DNA from: Alphaproteobacteria bacterium
GTDB lineage: Bacteria; Pseudomonadota; Alphaproteobacteria; RF32; CAG-239
Direction: 5' to 3'
Assembly: GCA_045593845.1 (NCBI GenBank)
Contig: JAZNXK010000011.1
Location: 97,198 to 161,197, forward strand
Length of the DNA: 64,000 nucleotides
Shown piece after piece: positions 56,103-64,000 of the stretch. Within the stretch, counting starts at the first letter, position 1. The number at the start of each line of letters is the position of its first letter. A program made the translations under genes and the position numbers. The notes under the pieces are model-generated. The model made no database searches. It saw only the letters and a program-made list of their open reading frames with translations, and had not been told where the DNA came from.

Positions 56103-56801
56103 ATGACAAGCGAGAGGTTTCAAAAATTTATTGAAATGTGGCAAAAAGATTTTGCCATTGATCGCAGTATTGATGAAAAAGTTTGCGTCGATAAAGACGG
56201 CAACTCTATTCCGTGGTACACATATCCGGCTATTGAATATCTATCACAGTTCGATTATTCGACCTTAAAAATTTTTGAGTTCGGGTGCGGGTATTCTTCG
56301 GCTTTTTGGGCAGAAAGAGCCTTAAAAGTAGTTAGTATTGAGGATAAAACCGAATGGTTCGAAAAATGGAAAAGCGAGTTCAAATATGAAAATTTAGACA
56401 TCAGATGGCGCGACGAAGGTGAAGGTTATGATGCGGCAATTTTTGAAGATAAAGAAAAATATGATGTAATCGTAATTGACGGAAAGCGCCGAAAAGAATG
56501 TGCCGAAGCGGCAGTAAAAGCTTTAAATACTGGCGGAATGATTATTTTGGATGACAGCGACAGAATTAATACCAGTGAAGAATATGTGCAAGCGATAAAA
56601 ATTTTACGAGCGGCAAATTTGTTGCAGGTGGATTTTTACGGATTTTGTCCTATGAATTGCTATACCAAAACGACGTCGCTATTTTTCAGCAGAGAATGGA
56701 ATTTTGCTTCAAAAAATAAAATTCAGCCGATTAACGGTTGGGGAAATTTGTGGTCTATGCAACGAAAAAAAAGAAAAAATTTTTTTAATGACTTTGGTTA
56801 A
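56103..56801 (+). CDS. class I SAM-dependent methyltransferase-like protein of unknown specificity
   Basis: FEFGCGYSS (motif I-like) and DVIVIDG (acidic loop). Confidence 0.35.
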   Translation: MTSERFQKFIEMWQKDFAIDRSIDEKVCVDKDGNSIPWYTYPAIEYLSQFDYSTLKIFEFGCGYSSAFWAERALKVVSIEDKTEWFEKWKSEFKYENLDIRWRDEGEGYDAAIFEDKEKYDVIVIDGKRRKECAEAAVKALNTGGMIILDDSDRINTSEEYVQAIKILRAANLLQVDFYGFCPMNCYTKTTSLFFSREWNFASKNKIQPINGWGNLWSMQRKKRKNFFNDFG

Positions 56802-58789: not shown

Positions 58790-58828
58790 AAAATCTTTTT
58801 TGAAACTATACGATACCTTTTTAGGCTC

Positions 58829-59590
58829 TTATCCGTTTTGATTGGGCCTTGTGATGGCGTATGACTTCATCGCTGTTGTTAAAAAATCTTTTTCTTGTTT
58901 TTGATCTGCTTTCAATTTTTCAATTTGTATGTTATGATAGGTATCCATTAGTCCTTCGCACTTTGATAAACCTTTAGAATTGTTACTGCATATAGGAGCC
59001 GCTTGAGCTAAAAATTTTTGCGTCTGGCTAATTTCATAATCCGATATTTTATTAAATTCTGTTTCTTTTAGTTTCTTGTCGAGCTCACTGACCATAAGCG
59101 TTGTAAGTTCAGAATTGGTTGATAATTTGCCTTCTTCATTTGGCCTATGTTCTATGAGTTTATGATAAAAATCTATTAGATGATGTATTGGGAAATTCTT
59201 TTCATCGCCCATTAAGTCGGGTGCAGCTTGGGTCACATTGGCTGCTGCTAGGATGATATTTTTTCCAAGTTCCTTCGCATCACTATTTTTACCTTCCTGA
59301 CAACGATAAAGCTCAGCCCAATAACGCCAGCCTTGAGCGGCAGCAGTTTCTCTCATCAGTGTGGCAAAATGTTCTTTTGTAGGTTTTCTTTCTATCGTCG
59401 GGGCAATCATATCTGTGATTTCAGTAACATCCAATTCTTGTTTGGATAATAAATTACTTAATAAACTAATTTCTCTATCTGTTACTTCATTGGGATGGAG
59501 CTTTCTTTCTGTTTCTAGAAATTTTTTTTGTGAAGATGTTTCTTGTGCTTGTTGTTCAATCTCATCGGGAAATAACATTCTTTTTAGCAT
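58829..59590 (-). CDS. hypothetical protein, paralog A of a duplicated pair (~40% aa identity to 59796-60521)
   Basis: Shared blocks NxVTDREISLL, W.YW.ELY and KL(S/T)TNSEL. AGGAG RBS. Confidence 0.5.
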   Translation of the reverse strand: MLKRMLFPDEIEQQAQETSSQKKFLETERKLHPNEVTDREISLLSNLLSKQELDVTEITDMIAPTIERKPTKEHFATLMRETAAAQGWRYWAELYRCQEGKNSDAKELGKNIILAAANVTQAAPDLMGDEKNFPIHHLIDFYHKLIEHRPNEEGKLSTNSELTTLMVSELDKKLKETEFNKISDYEISQTQKFLAQAAPICSNNSKGLSKCEGLMDTYHNIQIEKLKADQKQEKDFLTTAMKSYAITRPNQNG

Positions 59591-59662
59591 ATCTTTTCTC
59601 CTATAAAGTAATAAACGATATAGCAAGTTTACTATATTTATTTAATTTTGTCAAATTTTTTA

Positions 59663-59756
59663 TTATAGCTCTTTCAGCACTTCGTCAACATGGCCGGATA
59701 CTTTGACTTTGCGCCATTCTTTAATGACTTTCAGTTGTTCGTCCAAAATGAAAGTC
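59663..59756 (-). pseudogene. duplicated 3' fragment of bcp (last ~31 codons + stop), identical to 60595-60688
   Basis: Nucleotide alignment of 59633-59756 with 60564-60688 is ~97% identical. Confidence 0.55.
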
Positions 59757-59795
59757 TATTCCTTTTGCCAATATTTGATAGGAGGATTTGATATT

Positions 59796-60521
59796 TTATA
59801 ATTCCATTTCTTTTTGTTTAGCTTTTATGGGTGAGGTTAAACCAAGTATGTTTATTACGCTATTTTCTTCACTTTTCTGCTCTCTTCTTAGCTGTTCTTT
59901 TTCTATATTATGAATGCTTTTTATAATCTCTATGCATTTTGATGAAGCTGTAGAATGATTTTTAATTTCTTCTGCGGCTGTGTATACAAATTTTTTAATC
60001 ATCATAAAATCCCTCTCTTGAAGAAAAGGGGTGTCGGAGGGATCTGACATTAAATTATTATAAAACTCATTTGTCATGAGTGATGCCAATTCTGAATTTG
60101 TTGTTAATTTATTCTGAGTCGAATTTTCTTTGTTTCTGATTTTTATAAGTCTAACGTAAAATTTAGCTAATGCGTGTTTTCTATCAGCACAGTCATATAC
60201 TCCGTTTGAAGCTTGGATAATATTTTTACAAATTCCTTTGCTGTCATTTTCTTCCTGCTGGCTGTACAGCTCAAACCAATAATCCCATTTATATGTATAG
60301 GGTTTTAATGAGCCATTCATTAACAAAGCAATTTGTTCTTTTGAAGGATTTCTTTCAACTGTTGGTGTCATTATGCTTGCAATTTCATCGAGTTTCCAAC
60401 TTTTAGATTCGAATATGTCATTTAATAGGCTAATTTCTCTGTCAGTTACATTATCAGGGTTAGATGCTCTTTCATTGAATAGAAGTTTTTGCTGTAAAAT
60501 GACGTTATTTTTTTGTTCCAT
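59796..60521 (-). CDS. hypothetical protein, paralog B of the duplicated pair
   Basis: See paralog A. Confidence 0.5.
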   Translation of the reverse strand: MEQKNNVILQQKLLFNERASNPDNVTDREISLLNDIFESKSWKLDEIASIMTPTVERNPSKEQIALLMNGSLKPYTYKWDYWFELYSQQEENDSKGICKNIIQASNGVYDCADRKHALAKFYVRLIKIRNKENSTQNKLTTNSELASLMTNEFYNNLMSDPSDTPFLQERDFMMIKKFVYTAAEEIKNHSTASSKCIEIIKSIHNIEKEQLRREQKSEENSVINILGLTSPIKAKQKEMEL

Positions 60522-60594
60522 CTTTTATTCCTTGTAAGTGGTTGTATAGTGAGGATAGTTTATTATATTTATTTAATTTTGTCAAACTTTTTCA

Positions 60595-61035
60595 TTATAG
60601 CTCTTTCAGCACTTCGTCAACATGGCCGGATACTTTGACTTTGCGCCATTCTTTAATGACTTTCAGTTGTTCGTCCAAAATGAAAGTCGAGCGTTCAATT
60701 CCCATATATTTGCGTCCATACATGGACTTTTCTTTCCATACGCCAAATGCTTCGGACAAAGTATGTTCAGGGTCGGATAGCAGAACAAAATTTAAGCCTT
60801 GTTTTTGCTTAAATTTGATATGGCTGTTTATACTGTCGGGGCTTACGCCGATTACAGTTGCTTTGGAGCAAAGGCGGTTGTAGTTATTGCGAAAGTCGCA
60901 GGCTTCTTGCGTGCAACCGGAAGTGTTGTCTTTGGGGTAAAAATACAGAACTGTTTTCTTGCCTTTGAAATCACTTAATGAAAAGGTTTTTTCCACTCCG
61001 TTTTCATCAATTCCCTGCAGTTTTATATTTATCAT
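60595..61035 (-). CDS. bcp: peroxiredoxin Bcp (thiol peroxidase)
   Basis: FYPKDNTSGCTQEAC active-site motif. Confidence 0.85.
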   Translation of the reverse strand: MINIKLQGIDENGVEKTFSLSDFKGKKTVLYFYPKDNTSGCTQEACDFRNNYNRLCSKATVIGVSPDSINSHIKFKQKQGLNFVLLSDPEHTLSEAFGVWKEKSMYGRKYMGIERSTFILDEQLKVIKEWRKVKVSGHVDEVLKEL

Positions 61036-61049
61036 TTTTATTCCTTTAT

Positions 61050-61078
61050 AAAATAGAAAAAAGGCGTCGATTGACGCC
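61050..61078. terminator. bidirectional terminator AAAAAGGCGTC-gatt-GACGCCTTTT
   Basis: Seen in sequence. Confidence 0.55.
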
Positions 61079-61092
61079 TTTTGTGTTGTAAA

Positions 61093-62865
61093 TTATTTGC
61101 TCTTGTACATATCTCGCGGTGTGTAGTGAGTATGCAAGAGATGATGTGCTTTTTCGCCACCGGGATTGCCGATAAAATCTTTATACAAGGTTTTAATCGA
61201 CTCATTATGGTGAGAAAAGCGGTTTTTAGCGTTCAAATCTTCTTCAAACAAACCGTTAGCACGTTTCTGTCTGATTTCATCAGTAATACCATAAGGTTTA
61301 GCAAAAGGAGCACCGATAACGCGCGGTTGTCCGCCACCGGCAACACAACCGCCGCGGCAAGCCATTACCTCTACAAAGTGATAGGGCAATTCTTCGCCGT
61401 TGGCTTTTGCTTGGCGAATTCTATCCAAGATAATTTCTACATTGCCGACACCATGAGCAACTGCAATGCGAATATCTTTGCCGTTGATGGTAACCGTGGT
61501 TTCTTTAATGCCTTCCAAACCTTCAATATCGGTAAAGTCCGGTTGAGCCAATTCTTGTCCGGTGATGTAGAAATATGCTGTGCGCAAAGCCGCAATCATA
61601 ACGCCGCCGGTTGCACCGAAAATTGTGCCTGCACCGGAATATTCGCCCAAAGGATTGTCCGCTGTTTTTTCTGCAATATTACAAAAATCTATGCCGGCTT
61701 GCTTAATCATTTTGGCAAATTCGCGCGTGGTGATAGATACGTCAATATCCTGATAACCGGAGGAACTCATATCTTGACTGCGGACGATTTCCCATTTTTT
61801 GGCGGTGCAAGGCATTATTGATACAACACGAATTTTTTTCGAGTCAATGCCGTTTTTCTCGGCAAAATAAGTTTTTGCCAAAGCACCGACCATTGCTTGC
61901 GGAGATTTGCAGGTTGAAAAATGCGGAATCATATCGGAATTGAATTTTTCCAGCATATCAACCCAAGCAGGACAGCAAGAAGTAAACATCGGCAAGCTTT
62001 CCGGTTCTTGAGTAAAGCGGCGAACAAACTCGGTGGCTTCTTCAATGATGGTTAAGTCAGCACCGAAATTGGTATCGAATACTTTATCAAAACCCATACG
62101 GCGCAAAGCGGCATAAGTTTTTCCGGTCAAGTTTTTGCCGAACTCAAAGCCAAATTCTTCGCCGATAGCAACGCGAACTGCCGGTGCAATTTGCACAATG
62201 GTGAAAATTTCCGGATCACGCAACATTTCCCAAACTCTGCCGGTGTCATCATATTCTACAATAGCACCGGTCGGGCAGTGAGCTGAACATTGTCCGCATT
62301 TGATACACGGACTGTCTTCCAAGTTGATACCGTTGGCCGGAGTTATGCGAGTGGCCAAACCGCGGTTTAGGTAGCTTAAAGCCCAAATATTTTGTTTGTT
62401 TTGGCAGATGTCAACACAACGACCGCAAAGTATGCACTTGGAACTGTCAAGGACGATGGCTTTAGTAGAATCGTCGATGGGTGTTCTTTTGGTTAAATTG
62501 GGTAATGGTGCGTCGGTAATGTTGAATACATTAGCCATATCTTGCAATTCACAATGGCCGGAACGGGCGCATGAAAGACAAGAATTCGGGTGGTTGCTCA
62601 ATATCAATTTTAAAACCATGCGGCGAACTTCAAAAAGTTCTGCATCGGTGGTAATAACTTCCATACCTTCGGCAACAGGTGTGCAACAAGAACGCATAAT
62701 ACGTCCGTTGACGCGGACAATACACATTCCGCAACCGGCAGACGGGTCAACGTCAGGATGTTTGCACAAGGTCGGAATTTCGATTTGCACACTGCGTGCG
62801 GCGTCCAGAATAGAGGTGCCGGCGGCAACTTCAACTTCTTGATTATCAATTTTTAATTTTACCAT
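61093..62865 (-). CDS. hydA: [FeFe]-hydrogenase catalytic subunit HydA with N-terminal 2Fe-2S and 2x[4Fe-4S] domains
   Basis: H-cluster motifs read from the translation: L1 TSCCPAW, L2 MPCTAKKWE, L3 EVMACRGGCVAGGGQP. Ferredoxin-like Cys clusters CILCGRCVDIC and CIKCGQCSAHCP. Confidence 0.85.
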   Translation of the reverse strand: MVKLKIDNQEVEVAAGTSILDAARSVQIEIPTLCKHPDVDPSAGCGMCIVRVNGRIMRSCCTPVAEGMEVITTDAELFEVRRMVLKLILSNHPNSCLSCARSGHCELQDMANVFNITDAPLPNLTKRTPIDDSTKAIVLDSSKCILCGRCVDICQNKQNIWALSYLNRGLATRITPANGINLEDSPCIKCGQCSAHCPTGAIVEYDDTGRVWEMLRDPEIFTIVQIAPAVRVAIGEEFGFEFGKNLTGKTYAALRRMGFDKVFDTNFGADLTIIEEATEFVRRFTQEPESLPMFTSCCPAWVDMLEKFNSDMIPHFSTCKSPQAMVGALAKTYFAEKNGIDSKKIRVVSIMPCTAKKWEIVRSQDMSSSGYQDIDVSITTREFAKMIKQAGIDFCNIAEKTADNPLGEYSGAGTIFGATGGVMIAALRTAYFYITGQELAQPDFTDIEGLEGIKETTVTINGKDIRIAVAHGVGNVEIILDRIRQAKANGEELPYHFVEVMACRGGCVAGGGQPRVIGAPFAKPYGITDEIRQKRANGLFEEDLNAKNRFSHHNESIKTLYKDFIGNPGGEKAHHLLHTHYTPRDMYKSK

Positions 62866-62879
62866 AATTTTAGCTCCTC

Positions 62880-64000
62880 TTATTCTTTGTTTTTAGATAC
62901 TTTAGCTTCGTATTCATTGCCGAAGAAACGCAAGGTTGAAAGCACCGGATTTGGAGCTGTTTGTCCCAAACCGCAGAGCGATGCTTTTTGCATGGCATTG
63001 GCAATTTGACGCAATGTATTTATGTCTTCTTTTGTGGCATTGCCTTTGCTGATTTTTTCCAACAACATCAGCATTTGTTTACCGCCGATACGGCATGGAG
63101 CGCATTTGCCGCAAGATTCATCAACCGTAAAATCTAGATAGAATTTTGCCAAGTCGACCATATCGGAACTTTCATCAATAACAATCATACCGCCGGAGCC
63201 CATGATAGAGCCAACTTTTTTGAGTTCTTCATAGCAAAGGGGCATATCAATATAGTCTGTCGGAATAACACCGCCGGACGGACCGCCGGTTTGAACAGCT
63301 TTTAGTTTTTTGCCGTTTGGAACACCGCCGCCGATTTCGTTGACGATTTCGTTGATGGTGGTGCCCATTGGGACTTCGATAAGTCCGGAATGTTCAACTT
63401 GTCCGGTGAGTGCAAAAACTTTTGTACCTTTTGAAGTTGCCGTGCCGAAAGAAGAAAACCAATCTGCGCCTTTTAAGATAATCGGAGCAACGTTGGCCAA
63501 AGTTTCAACATTGTTAATGCAGCTGGGTTTATCCCACAAACCTTTATCTGTCGGATATGGCGGACGCGGGCGAGGAGTACCTCTTTTGCCTTCAATGGAG
63601 TGAATAAGAGCTGTTTCTTCACCGCAAACAAATGCGCCGGCACCAAGACGAATATCAATGTTAAAATTGAAATTTGTTCCCATGATGTTGTTGCCGAGCA
63701 AACGGTTCTTTTTGCAGGCTTTGATTGCTTTTTCAATGCGTTCAACTGCCAAAGGATATTCTGCTCTAATATAAAACCAGCCTTCGGTTGCTCCGATGGC
63801 ATAAGCGGCAATCATCATACCTTCGATAACACCGTGCGGGTTGGATTCCAAAATACTGCGGTCCATATAAGCACCCGGGTCGCCTTCATCACCATTACAA
63901 ATGATAAATTTAGAATCTTCGGCTTTTACTCTGGAAGCAAAATCCCATTTGTTACCGGTCGGAAAACCTGCACCACCGCGGCCGCGAAGTCCGGATTTTT
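62880..64000 (-). CDS. hydB: NuoF-like NADH-binding flavoprotein subunit of the hydrogenase (HydB/HndC-like); 5' end lies beyond the window
   Basis: GGAGFPTG... and SCGKCAPCR motifs. The reading frame stays open past the listed Met to position 64000. Confidence 0.8.

What the first reader, a model, noticed from the sequence alone, without database searches (positions are those of the whole stretch)
61093..64000. Multimeric [FeFe] hydrogenase (HydA + NuoF-like HydB) in an alphaproteobacterial-type chromosome
HydA shows all three H-cluster motifs plus N-terminal ferredoxin-like domains. The adjacent NuoF-like flavoprotein implies a NAD(H)/ferredoxin-coupled, probably electron-bifurcating, hydrogenase of the kind typical of strict anaerobes. 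Together with nagAB, nitroreductase and the low GC, it points to a fermentative, host- or gut-associated alphaproteobacterium. That lifestyle is unusual for the class.
Basis: partly seen in the sequence, partly recalled or inferred. Interest (0 to 1): 0.55.

Follow-up and report, generated by a model that had tools for sequence, protein, structure and literature searches.

The report
Ferredoxin-domain-less HydABC hydrogenase, rumen alphaproteobacterium
The window ends in a real, intact hydrogen-producing enzyme operon of an uncultured rumen/gut alphaproteobacterium, of a kind reported for this group in 2016, but its flavoprotein subunit lacks the parts needed for ferredoxin-coupled electron bifurcation, so it most likely links H2 directly to NAD(P)H.

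Summary
Window 61093-62865 (-) encodes a complete 590-aa M3-type [FeFe]-hydrogenase HydA. Window 62880-64000 (-) holds the last 372 codons of a NuoF-like HydB that runs off the window.

The closest public genome is a yak-rumen alphaproteobacterial MAG (HydA 99% aa, same synteny). It shows the full hydC(NuoE-like)-hydB-hydA operon, and that order recurs in about 36 gut/rumen alphaproteobacterial species. The genes are under strong purifying selection (dN/dS 0.013 and 0.029), so this is not a remnant.

"Probably electron-bifurcating" is not supported. HydB stops 6 residues after its last conserved core position. It therefore lacks the ~70-aa C-terminal 2x[4Fe-4S] ferredoxin-like domain (B3/B4) that forms the ferredoxin branch in every solved bifurcating HydB. 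All five B2-site ligands are also missing. Yet it keeps the "bifurcating-type" residues around FMN/NADH and the N-terminal [2Fe-2S] domain.

The best reading is a non-bifurcating NAD(P)H-linked hydrogenase derived from bifurcating ancestors. The same tail loss recurs in other phyla.

The operon and the maturases were already reported for gut "Azospirillum/Acetobacter CAG" MAGs in 2016. I could not test for maturases in this genome. Interest is modest.

The parts
61093..62865 (-). hydA: complete catalytic subunit of an M3-type [FeFe]-hydrogenase (590 aa). It carries a [2Fe-2S] domain, a His-ligated [4Fe-4S], two [4Fe-4S], the H-domain and a small-subunit-like C-terminus.
   Evidence: ORF. Pfam domains. 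NCBIfam NF040763 is above its cut-off. Best PDB matches are T. kivui HydA1 (8a6t_A, E 1e-167) and A. woodii HydA1 (7q4v_A). dN/dS against L001 is 0.013.
61324..61983 (-). The three H-cluster binding motifs of HydA: TSCCPAW (61963-61983), MPCTAKKWE (61789-61815) and EVMACRGGCVAGGGQP (61324-61371).
   Evidence: The same three motifs are kept in 35 of 35 full-length HydA of the gut-alpha clade.
62880..64000 (-). hydB, 3' part (372 codons plus a TAA at 62880-62882). This NuoF-like flavoprotein has an FMN/NAD(P)H site, an SLBB domain and an N3-type [4Fe-4S] (B1). The gene continues beyond the window. The protein ends ...[11 protein letters not shown] with no ferredoxin-like tail.
   Evidence: Pfam domains. 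DNA alignment to L001 hydB is 93% identical. The full-length homologue in L001 is 559 aa. The PDB bifurcating HydBs 7t2r_B, 7q4v_B, 8a6t_B and 7p5h_B all extend ~70 aa further.
63858..63878 (-). HydB motif PGAYMDR. It has Ala and Met at the positions equivalent to T. maritima HydB 232 and 234, the 'bifurcating-type' residues of Losey 2020.
63273..63287 (-). HydB GGPSG motif in the SLBB domain ('bifurcating-type'). GAGAFVC, with Phe at the T. maritima 367 position, lies at 63624-63644.
62883..63176 (-). HydB C-terminal region, where the B1 cysteines (SCGKCAPC ... SLCGLG) are kept but the B2 ligands are gone. Cys438 is Asp (in DESSDMV), Cys476 is Ser, His525 is Lys (in EYEAKV), and Cys531/Cys536 would lie beyond the stop codon (A. 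mobile numbering).
   Evidence: Ligand list from PMC8880783. It was mapped through the alignment. The tabulation is and the coordinates.
62874..62879 (-). GAGGAG ribosome-binding site for hydA, immediately after the hydB stop. There is no room for a missing ferredoxin-domain exon or a frameshifted tail.
61059..61082 (-). Intrinsic-terminator-like hairpin (10-bp stem followed by a T-run), 11 nt after the hydA stop. It is the likely end of the hydCBA transcript.
   Evidence: The same hairpin is conserved in L001.

Best explanation
The window ends inside a hydC-hydB-hydA operon. It encodes a cytoplasmic heterotrimeric [FeFe]-hydrogenase (HydDB group A3; NCBIfam 'A6') of an uncultured rumen/gut alphaproteobacterium.

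**Proposed electron path.** HydA makes or splits H2 at the H-cluster. Electrons pass through its four accessory Fe-S clusters to the [4Fe-4S] cluster B1 and the FMN of HydB, where NAD(P)+/NAD(P)H reacts. HydC contributes the [2Fe-2S] cluster C1.

**Why it is probably not bifurcating.** HydB descends from bifurcating-type HydB. It keeps their FMN-site residues and the N-terminal [2Fe-2S] domain. It has lost the B2 site and the whole C-terminal 2x[4Fe-4S] ferredoxin-like domain (B3/B4). That domain is the low-potential exit and the ferredoxin docking site of bifurcating HydABC. The enzyme therefore most likely works as a simple, reversible NAD(P)H:H+ oxidoreductase. Either it disposes of glycolytic NADH as H2 when hydrogenotrophs keep H2 low, or it takes up H2 to make NADH when H2 is high. 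It probably does not confurcate NADH plus reduced ferredoxin.

**Shown here:** gene content, domain and ligand losses, conservation, and selection.
**Inferred:** the cofactor path, lack of ferredoxin coupling, direction of catalysis, and NAD versus NADP specificity.
For: 1. **Intact catalytic subunit.** HydA has all H-cluster motifs and sits above the NCBIfam cut-off for NADH-dependent [FeFe] hydrogenase.
2. **Complete operon.** hydCBA is complete in the nearest genome L001. It keeps the same order in all 80 related loci where the contig allows, and in L081-L083. The HydC C1 cysteines are conserved.
3. **Missing tail.** HydB aligns end to end with the solved bifurcating HydBs (E 6e-198 to 3e-161) but stops about 70 aa before they do. 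None of the top 120 homologues (81-100% id) has a Fer4 Pfam domain.
4. **Missing B2 ligands.** The ligands C438, C476, H525, C531 and C536 (PMC8880783) are D, S, K, absent and absent here. Every gut-alpha HydB shows the same pattern. The 'full' HydBs of Omnitrophota, Spirochaetes and Elusimicrobia in the same dataset keep Cys and His plus a 71-74-aa tail with 10-11 Cys.
5. **The missing domain is the ferredoxin branch.**
   - BfuB is defined partly by the ferredoxin-type domain IPR017896 and five clusters (PMC9304861).
   - Ferredoxin docks on the HydB C-terminal domain, and T. kivui HydABC with that C-terminus deleted has low bifurcation activity (PMC10021017).
   - In Nfn-Bfu the path is C1 to B3 to B4 to Fd (PMC12018979).
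6. **Precedent.** Ferredoxin-independent NADH-linked HydABC-type enzymes with fewer HydB clusters are experimentally established: S. wolfei and S. aciditrophicus (PMC7311640) and an anaerobic fungus (PMC13556243).
7. **Functional gene.** dN/dS is 0.013 (hydA) and 0.029 (hydB) against L001.
Against: - HydB carries all four 'bifurcating-diagnostic' features of Losey 2020: Ala and Met in PGAYMDR, Phe in GAGAFVC, and GGPSG. By that published sequence criterion it would be called bifurcating.
- The currently proposed bifurcation site (B1-FMN-C1, PMC12018979) is fully retained. So is the N-terminal [2Fe-2S] domain, whose loss cripples bifurcation in T. kivui (PMC10021017). Ferredoxin could conceivably dock on HydC/C1 or on HydA's distal clusters.
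- NADH-only H2 evolution needs very low H2 (below ~60 Pa according to PMC7311640), which is marginal in gut and rumen.
- No biochemistry exists for this subtype.
- The HydB N-terminus and HydC are read from L001, not from this window.
- Maturases were not located.
Confidence: 0.6

Rival explanations
1. It is still an electron-bifurcating/confurcating hydrogenase. NADH and reduced ferredoxin together would drive H2 formation, with ferredoxin docking somewhere other than the lost HydB tail. Candidate sites are the mobile C1 domain of HydC and HydA's distal [2Fe-2S]/[4Fe-4S] clusters, as in monomeric CpI.
For: - The bifurcating-type residues A/M/F/GGPSG are all retained.
- HydA, HydB and HydC are each closest to subunits of solved bifurcating enzymes.
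- The B1-FMN-C1 'flavobicluster' and the N-terminal [2Fe-2S] domain are intact.
- Related gut MAGs are reported to have PFOR and small ferredoxins (PMC4967309).
Against: - B3/B4 and all B2 ligands are missing.
- Deleting the HydB C-terminus in T. kivui gives low bifurcation activity.
- The only ferredoxin-bound Bfu structure places ferredoxin against the B3/B4 domain.
- No ferredoxin gene lies in the operon or elsewhere in the 64-kb window.
Confidence: 0.22
2. It has the same non-bifurcating chemistry but runs physiologically as an uptake hydrogenase. Gut or rumen H2 would be oxidised to make NAD(P)H for biosynthesis or an anaerobic respiratory chain, rather than serving as a fermentative H2 vent.
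For: - H2 to NAD+ is exergonic at the H2 levels of gut contents (established thermodynamics; my inference).
- NADH to H2 is only feasible below ~60 Pa (PMC7311640).
- Some clade members carry a PAS-domain sensory-type hydrogenase next to the operon, which suggests regulation by H2 (L035).
Against: - Nothing in the window links the operon to a respiratory acceptor.
- The genomic context is sugar and amino-sugar catabolism and glycolysis.
- Reported relatives have PFOR-type fermentative metabolism.
- The enzyme is reversible, so this is a matter of direction and not a different mechanism.
Confidence: 0.15
3. It is a non-functional remnant of a horizontally acquired operon.
For: - No hydE/F/G genes lie in the window or in the 10-kb flanks of 37 related loci.
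- hydA and hydB have 45% GC against 38.8% for the window.
Against: - dN/dS is 0.013 and 0.029.
- All H-cluster and Fe-S ligands are intact.
- The operon is conserved in about 36 species, with 35 of 35 HydA keeping all motifs.
- HydC is present.
- Maturases are reported in related MAGs (PMC4967309).
Confidence: 0.02

Closest known systems
NuoE/NuoF-like + M3 [FeFe]-hydrogenase operon of human-gut alphaproteobacterial MAGs 'Azospirillum sp. CAG:239' and 'Acetobacter sp. CAG:977' (Degli Esposti et al. 2016, PMC4967309)
   Same: - The gene order NuoE-like, NuoF-like, M3 HydA is the same (consecutive accessions CDB53275-7).
- The host group is the same kind: uncultured gut Rhodospirillales-like alphaproteobacteria. 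Several of my related loci carry the 'uncultured Azospirillum' label.
- The maturases are also encoded away from the operon.
   Different: - I could not show sequence identity to those accessions (one search returned no CDB numbers), so the link rests on taxonomy labels and architecture.
- That paper, as far as I read it, does not discuss the missing HydB ferredoxin domain or the question of bifurcation.
Electron-bifurcating HydABC / BfuABC of Thermoanaerobacter kivui, Acetobacterium woodii and Thermotoga maritima (PDB 8a6t, 7q4v/8a5e, 7p5h)
   Same: - These are the best structural-database matches for all three subunits.
- They share the M3 HydA, the B1-FMN-C1 core, the N-terminal [2Fe-2S] domain of HydB, and the A/M/F/GGPSG residues.
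   Different: - The ~70-aa C-terminal 2x[4Fe-4S] domain (B3/B4) is absent here.
- The B2/Zn-site ligands are absent.
- There is no HydD and no C-terminal [2Fe-2S] extension on HydA.
[quoted passage not shown]
   Same: - Heteromeric HydA plus a NuoF-like subunit (plus a NuoE-like subunit).
- A HydB without the B2-B4 clusters.
- A predicted direct NADH-to-H2 link without ferredoxin.
   Different: - Those HydBs have Nqo1-type residues: Thr/Ser and Lys/Ser/Ala at Tm232/234, Tyr at 367, and no GGPSG.
- They also lack the N-terminal [2Fe-2S] domain.
- The HydB here has the bifurcating-type residues and keeps that domain. This points to an independent, later derivation.
Hydrogenedentota / Acidobacteriota 'sub-type II' BfuABC (Zheng & Huang 2024, PMC11406978)
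   Same: A group A3 HydABC whose HydB lacks B3/B4, and which is predicted on that basis not to bifurcate.
   Different: Sub-type II also lacks the N-terminal B5 domain, which is retained here. I did not place sub-type II sequences in my trees.
Hydrogenosomal Hyd + NuoE + NuoF of anaerobic fungi (Caecomyces churrovis, PMC13556243)
   Same: An [FeFe]-hydrogenase working with a NuoE/NuoF module. It was shown experimentally to make H2 from NADH without ferredoxin.
   Different: - The proteins are eukaryotic and separately encoded.
- The NuoF has non-bifurcating-type features.
- No operon is involved.

Membership tests
Heteromeric group A3 (NCBIfam 'A6') [FeFe]-hydrogenase HydABC | Catalytic subunit with the three H-cluster motifs and the H-domain | tested here: met
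   Fe_hyd_lg_C scores E 2.9e-93. The motifs lie at 61963-61983, 61789-61815 and 61324-61371. NF040763 scores 776 bits against a cut-off of 765.
Heteromeric group A3 (NCBIfam 'A6') [FeFe]-hydrogenase HydABC | M3-type N-terminus: a [2Fe-2S], a His-ligated [4Fe-4S] and two [4Fe-4S] | tested here: met
   Pfam Fer2_4, NADH-G_4Fe-4S_3 and two Fer4. Motifs HPNSCLSCARSGHC, CILCGRCVDIC and CIKCGQCSAHC.
Heteromeric group A3 (NCBIfam 'A6') [FeFe]-hydrogenase HydABC | Adjacent NuoF-like flavoprotein (HydB) with an FMN/NADH site and an N3-type [4Fe-4S] | tested here: met
   Complex1_51K, SLBB and NADH_4Fe-4S in window 62880-63998. hydB is separated from hydA by a 14-nt spacer (62866-62879) that carries the RBS.
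Heteromeric group A3 (NCBIfam 'A6') [FeFe]-hydrogenase HydABC | NuoE-like [2Fe-2S] subunit (HydC) in the operon | tested here: inconclusive
   It lies outside the window. It is present directly upstream of hydB in L001 (160 aa, 2Fe-2S_thioredx E 9e-46, four Cys conserved). It is also present in every related locus with enough upstream sequence. For this strain it is inferred, not seen.
Heteromeric group A3 (NCBIfam 'A6') [FeFe]-hydrogenase HydABC | Maturases HydE, HydF and HydG in the genome | not testable with these tools
   No radical-SAM ORF lies in the window. No HydE/G/F-like ORF lies in the flanks of L001-L037. The genome is not in the look-up collection. Maturases are reported in related gut MAGs (PMC4967309).
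Electron-bifurcating BfuABC/HydABC (Schut et al. 2022 definition) | BfuB carries the FMN domain (IPR011538), SLBB (IPR019554) and the Nuo51 [4Fe-4S] domain (IPR019575) | tested here: met
   The Pfam equivalents PF01512, PF10531 and PF10589 are found.
Electron-bifurcating BfuABC/HydABC (Schut et al. 2022 definition) | BfuB carries a C-terminal 4Fe-4S ferredoxin-type domain (IPR017896; clusters B3 and B4) | tested here: not met
   The protein ends 6 aa after the position of His525, with no Cys. There is no Fer4 Pfam hit. None is found in the 120 closest homologues. Downstream is the hydA RBS, not a tail.
Electron-bifurcating BfuABC/HydABC (Schut et al. 2022 definition) | B2 (or Zn) site ligands: Cys438, (Cys/Thr476), His525, Cys531, Cys536 (A. 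mobile numbering) | tested here: not met
   They are Asp, Ser, Lys, absent and absent.
Electron-bifurcating BfuABC/HydABC (Schut et al. 2022 definition) | N-terminal [2Fe-2S] domain of BfuB (B5), plus BfuC with C1 | tested here: inconclusive
   Both are present in L001 (PF01257 at aa 29-101, with Cys in CCHSTGC...GCMGLC; HydC). This part of the gene lies beyond the window.
Electron-bifurcating BfuABC/HydABC (Schut et al. 2022 definition) | Bifurcating-type residues near NADH/FMN (Ala202 and Met204 in A. mobile; Phe at Tm367; GGPSG) | tested here: met
   PGAYMDR, GAGAFVC and GGPSG.
Non-bifurcating NADH-dependent [FeFe]-hydrogenase, S. wolfei/S. aciditrophicus type (Losey et al. 2020 criteria) | Beta subunit with fewer Fe-S clusters than bifurcating enzymes | tested here: met
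   B2, B3 and B4 are absent.
Non-bifurcating NADH-dependent [FeFe]-hydrogenase, S. wolfei/S. aciditrophicus type (Losey et al. 2020 criteria) | Thr/Ser at Tm232, Lys/Ser/Ala at Tm234, Tyr at Tm367, and no GGPSG | tested here: not met
   Ala, Met and Phe are found, and GGPSG is present.
Non-bifurcating NADH-dependent [FeFe]-hydrogenase, S. wolfei/S. aciditrophicus type (Losey et al. 2020 criteria) | Ferredoxin-independent NADH:H+ oxidoreductase activity | not testable with these tools
   This needs enzyme assays.

The most novel reading that the evidence does not exclude
The gut/rumen alphaproteobacterial HydABC may represent a distinct, recurrently evolved subclass of group A3 hydrogenases. 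Similar forms occur in Acidobacteriaceae, some Omnitrophota/Elusimicrobia and others.

In this subclass a bifurcating-type HydB has shed the B2 site and the B3/B4 ferredoxin domain. It keeps the B1-FMN-C1 core, the N-terminal [2Fe-2S] domain and every 'bifurcating-diagnostic' residue.

If so, one of two things follows:
- The published residue signatures do not predict bifurcation, and these are naturally 'de-bifurcated' NAD(P)H hydrogenases.
- Ferredoxin can be served directly from C1, which would be a minimal bifurcating module.

Either outcome would be a natural test of current Bfu mechanism models. It would also bear on what kind of NuoEF-hydrogenase an alphaproteobacterial ancestor could have given to hydrogenosomes.
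Probability: 0.45. Interest if true: 0.5.

Novelty: new member of a known kind. Interest (0 to 1): 0.3.

Why it matters
Group A3 hydrogenases are routinely annotated as 'bifurcating' in gut and rumen H2-budget studies. Here a very abundant gut lineage carries a version that most likely cannot use ferredoxin. One HydB relative alone is on >=1000 public contigs. If so, the thermodynamics change: H2 is made only at very low H2, or the enzyme takes H2 up. That in turn changes how these bacteria interact with methanogens.

The two published sequence rules for telling bifurcating from non-bifurcating HydB disagree on this protein. That makes it a cheap and informative target for enzymology.

Tried and rejected
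- **Extending the window.** Exact-sequence look-ups of HydA, Bcp and the 241-aa orphan found nothing. This genome is not in the collection, so hydC and the 5' end of hydB had to be read from L001.
- **Maturases.** I searched for radical-SAM CxxxCxxC ORFs in the window. I searched for HydE/G/F-like ORFs in the flanks of L001-L037. Only RlmN-like and HemN-like proteins turned up.
- **Sequence link to the 2016 CAG:239/CAG:977 accessions.** Cluster members returned no CDB/CCZ accessions.
- **Separate ferredoxin gene.** I scanned the window for a 2x[4Fe-4S] ferredoxin that could replace the lost domain. Only HydA's own motif matched the pattern.
- **Frameshift or mis-assembly.** I considered that the short HydB might be an artefact. 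I rejected this because the stop, RBS and hydA start are contiguous, and the same end is seen in about 36 species and in 120 of 120 close homologues.
- **Single origin of all short-type HydBs.** This was rejected by NJ bootstraps on concatenated HydA plus the HydB core (0 of 100; Fitch 2-5 changes). These are distance trees only.
- **Orphan ORFs.** Pfam, NCBIfam and PHROGs gave nothing for the two orphan ORFs.


Full report
**1. What is in the window**

The minus strand of 61093-62865 is one 590-aa ORF. Its Pfam architecture is Fer2_4, NADH-G_4Fe-4S_3, two Fer4, Fe_hyd_lg_C (E 2.9e-93) and Fe_hyd_SSU. This is an M3-type [FeFe]-hydrogenase catalytic subunit.

The three H-cluster motifs (TSCCPAW, MPCTAKKWE, EVMACRGGCVAGGGQP) and the ligand motifs of the accessory clusters are all present. 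NCBIfam places the protein above the curated cut-off of NF040763, 'NADH-dependent [FeFe] hydrogenase, group A6' (776 against 765 bits). The best solved relatives are the HydA1 subunits of the T. kivui and A. woodii HydABC complexes (E 1e-167 and 2e-165), ahead of clostridial CpI.

Upstream on the same strand, the frame is open from the window edge to a TAA at 62880-62882. The 372 residues present carry Complex1_51K, SLBB and NADH_4Fe-4S. This is the C-terminal two-thirds of a NuoF-like HydB. A GAGGAG ribosome-binding site lies between its stop and the hydA ATG. A strong terminator-like hairpin follows hydA at 61082-61059.

**2. Whose genome, and the rest of the operon**

A scan of one genome per species found 563 relatives. 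The best hit, L001, is a yak-rumen MAG labelled Alphaproteobacteria (RGIG10214). Its HydA is 99% identical, its hydB DNA is 93% identical, and downstream synteny is the same (nagB, nagA, a 232-aa ORF, holA, lptE, leuS).

The next 36 loci, at 66-87% HydA identity, are all gut or rumen MAGs. They come from cattle, deer, yak, mouse and human, and they are labelled Alphaproteobacteria, 'uncultured Azospirillum', Rhodospirillaceae or (Pseudo)Proteobacteria. The source paper of the RGIG MAGs describes reduced ~1.6-Mb genomes of the order RF32 among ruminant Alphaproteobacteria (PMC8199421). I did not verify the GTDB placement of this strain.

In L001 the operon is hydC (160 aa, NuoE-like, E 9e-46), hydB (559 aa) and hydA (590 aa). 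The same order is seen in every related locus with enough sequence. It is also seen in three long contigs of an abundant human-gut relative. For this strain it lies just beyond the window and is inferred.

**3. A working gene, not a remnant**

Between the window and L001, hydA has dS 0.47 and dN 0.006 (dN/dS 0.013). The hydB part gives 0.029. All 35 full-length HydA of the gut-alpha clade keep the three H-cluster motifs.

No radical-SAM ORF lies in the 64-kb window. No HydE/F/G-like ORF lies in the 10-kb flanks of 37 related loci. The maturases must therefore be elsewhere. Degli Esposti et al. reported HydE, HydF, HydG, PFOR and small ferredoxins in the gut MAGs 'Azospirillum sp. CAG:239/260' and 'Acetobacter sp. 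CAG:977/267'. They reported them together with exactly this NuoE-like/NuoF-like/M3-HydA cluster (PMC4967309). I could not search the rest of this genome.

**4.

The full-length HydB of L001 matches the HydB/BfuB chains of solved bifurcating enzymes almost end to end. These are A. mobile NiFe-HydABCSL 7t2r_B (E 6e-198), A. woodii 7q4v_B, T. kivui 8a6t_B and T. maritima 7p5h_B. The match is far better than to Nqo1 (1e-116). However, every one of those chains continues about 70 residues past the end of this protein.

Those residues are the 2x[4Fe-4S] ferredoxin-like domain (clusters B3 and B4). The B2 site of bifurcating HydB is ligated by Cys438, Cys476, His525, Cys531 and Cys536 (PMC8880783). 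Mapped through the alignment, these are Asp, Ser and Lys here, and the last two fall beyond the stop.

Across 76 HydBs from the related loci the split is clean.
- All gut-alpha proteins have Asp/Asn and Lys at the Cys438 and His525 positions (the semi-conserved Cys476 position varies), plus a 4-12-aa Cys-free tail.
- Omnitrophota, Spirochaete, Margulisbacteria and some Elusimicrobia proteins have Cys and His, plus a 71-74-aa tail with 10-11 cysteines.

None of the 120 closest database homologues (81-100% id) has a Fer4 domain.

**5. Why that matters mechanistically**

- Schut et al. define BfuB by four InterPro domains, including the ferredoxin-type domain. They describe an invariant BfuBC core with six clusters. 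The non-bifurcating homologues (S. wolfei hydrogenase, Nqo1, FdsB, HoxF) lack B2-B5 (PMC9304861).
- In A. woodii and T. kivui HydABC, ferredoxin is modelled on the HydB C-terminal domain. A T. kivui complex with that C-terminus deleted has low bifurcation activity (PMC10021017).
- The ferredoxin-bound Nfn-Bfu structure shows the low-potential path C1 to B3 to B4 to ferredoxin. Ferredoxin is held between BfuC and the BfuB ferredoxin-like domain (PMC12018979).

The enzyme here has no such exit. The most economical reading is a reversible NAD(P)H:H+ oxidoreductase. This resembles S. wolfei Hyd1ABC, S. aciditrophicus HydAB (PMC7311640) and the fungal Hyd-NuoEF complex (PMC13556243).

**6. Why I am not more confident**

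Losey et al. proposed residue signatures as more diagnostic than cluster counts. The positions are given in T. maritima (Tm) HydB numbering.

| Position | Bifurcating type | Non-bifurcating type |
|---|---|---|
| Tm232 | Ala/Glu | Thr/Ser |
| Tm234 | Met | Lys/Ser/Ala |
| Tm367 | Phe | Tyr |
| SLBB motif | GGPSG | absent |

This HydB, and all 76 in my set, carries the bifurcating pattern: PGAYMDR, GAGAFVC and GGPSG. It also keeps the N-terminal [2Fe-2S] domain and, with HydC, the B1-FMN-C1 trio now proposed as the bifurcation site.

So the two published sequence rules disagree on this protein. It fails membership of the Bfu family as defined. It also fails the residue criteria of the S. wolfei type. 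It looks like a bifurcating-lineage enzyme that lost its ferredoxin branch. A non-canonical ferredoxin site cannot be excluded. I put about 0.6 on non-bifurcating and about 0.2 on some form of ferredoxin coupling.

The direction of catalysis is open. NADH-driven H2 formation needs H2 below roughly 60 Pa (PMC7311640). That is marginal in rumen and gut (my inference), so H2 uptake to NADH is a live alternative.

**7. Distribution and origin**

In NJ trees of HydA, of the HydB core and of both concatenated (944 columns), the support values are as follows.
- The gut-alpha clade is monophyletic in 100 of 100 replicates.
- A groundwater alphaproteobacterial MAG (L072) joins it in 87 of 100.
- A rumen 'proteobacterium' (L078) joins next in 68 of 100. 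Both of these are also short-type.

The next relatives, at 56-62% HydA identity, are Omnitrophota, Acidobacteriaceae, Spirochaetes and Elusimicrobia. Short-type HydBs also occur in Acidobacteriaceae, in a sub-clade nested among full-type Omnitrophota, and in a Sumerlaeota MAG. Monophyly of all short types was found in 0 of 100 bootstraps. Parsimony needs 2-5 changes, with a median of 3. These are distance trees with shallow sampling, so 'at least two independent losses' is provisional.

I also classified the 150 best representatives at 50% identity from an exhaustive search with the window's HydB.
- 24 are canonical: four of four residues, both ferredoxin motifs, and all B2 ligands.
- Only two complete clusters combine four of four residues with no tail and no B2 ligands. 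One of them, P0149, is this clade's representative.
- A few clusters (P0156, P0193) keep the B2 ligands but lack B3/B4.

hydA and hydB have 45% GC against 38.8% for the window. This fits an old transfer, but it can also reflect amino-acid composition.

**8. Novelty and score**

Heteromeric [FeFe]-hydrogenase with NuoE/F-like partners in gut alphaproteobacteria has been published since 2016 (PMC4967309). It is also extremely common in public data. One 82%-identical HydB is on >=1000 contigs, including ~2-Mb contigs. The window adds a new strain of a known kind.

The added value of this check has three parts.
- It corrects 'bifurcating' to 'most likely not'.
- It shows that this abundant lineage carries a B2/B3/B4-less HydB with bifurcating-type residues.
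- It shows that published criteria conflict on this protein.

I did not find this subtype described in the papers I read. Hydrogenedentota sub-type II lacks B3, B4 and B5. My literature coverage is limited. I score interest at 0.3.

Noticed in passing
window 58790-61058: A ~2.3-kb segment lies between nagB and the hydA terminator. It carries bcp (peroxiredoxin, 60595-61035, -) and two paralogous orphan ORFs (241 aa at 59796-60521 and 265 aa at 58829-59626; 36.6% identical; GC 31-35%; no Pfam, NCBIfam or PHROG hit). The segment is absent from the otherwise syntenic L001 and from all other related loci. It is bounded by an 11-bp direct repeat, TTTTCTATTTT, which could reflect an insertion here or a deletion in L001.
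   Followed up: partly
L031 11897-13375 (+); L032 6319-7788 (+); L035 14448-15911 (-) and 17335-19044 (-): Some rumen members of the clade carry further [FeFe]-hydrogenase homologues next to hydCBA. One is a ~490-aa protein with four Fer4-type motifs plus an H-domain. In L035 there is also a 569-aa protein with an H-domain and a PAS domain (sensory HydS-like). None of these is present beside the operon in this window.
   Followed up: partly
L042, L043, L048-L050, L053, L054, L059 (Acidobacteriaceae); L041, L051, L052, L067, L068, L073; L056; L072; L078: The same HydB tail loss, with the B2-ligand positions mostly replaced (the Sumerlaeota HydB L056 still has Cys at the Cys438 position) and the bifurcating-type residues retained, occurs in several other phyla. 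It is not monophyletic in NJ trees (0 of 100 bootstraps).
   Followed up: partly
P0156 (570 aa), P0193 (576 aa), P0151 (656 aa) from the representative search: Intermediate HydB architectures exist. Some representatives keep the B2 ligands (Cys, His and a CxxxC just after the core) but lack B3/B4. One short-type representative has an N-terminal region ~85 aa longer than the others.
   Followed up: no
window 61093-64000 versus the whole window: hydA and hydB have 45.0% and 44.6% GC, against 38.8% for the window and 39-40% for the neighbouring nagA and nagB. This could be an old horizontal acquisition or an effect of amino-acid composition.
   Followed up: no
window 56103-56801 (+): A 232-aa ORF lies between holA and nagA. 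It is conserved in six related loci (L001-L003, L006-L008; 68-90% id) and has only a weak class-I methyltransferase signal (Methyltransf_24, E 9e-4). It has no NCBIfam family.
   Followed up: partly
window 61059-61082 and L001 11786-11809: In L001 the hairpin after hydA sits between the convergent hydA and nagB genes, so it could act as a bidirectional terminator. In the window the insertion separates them.
   Followed up: no
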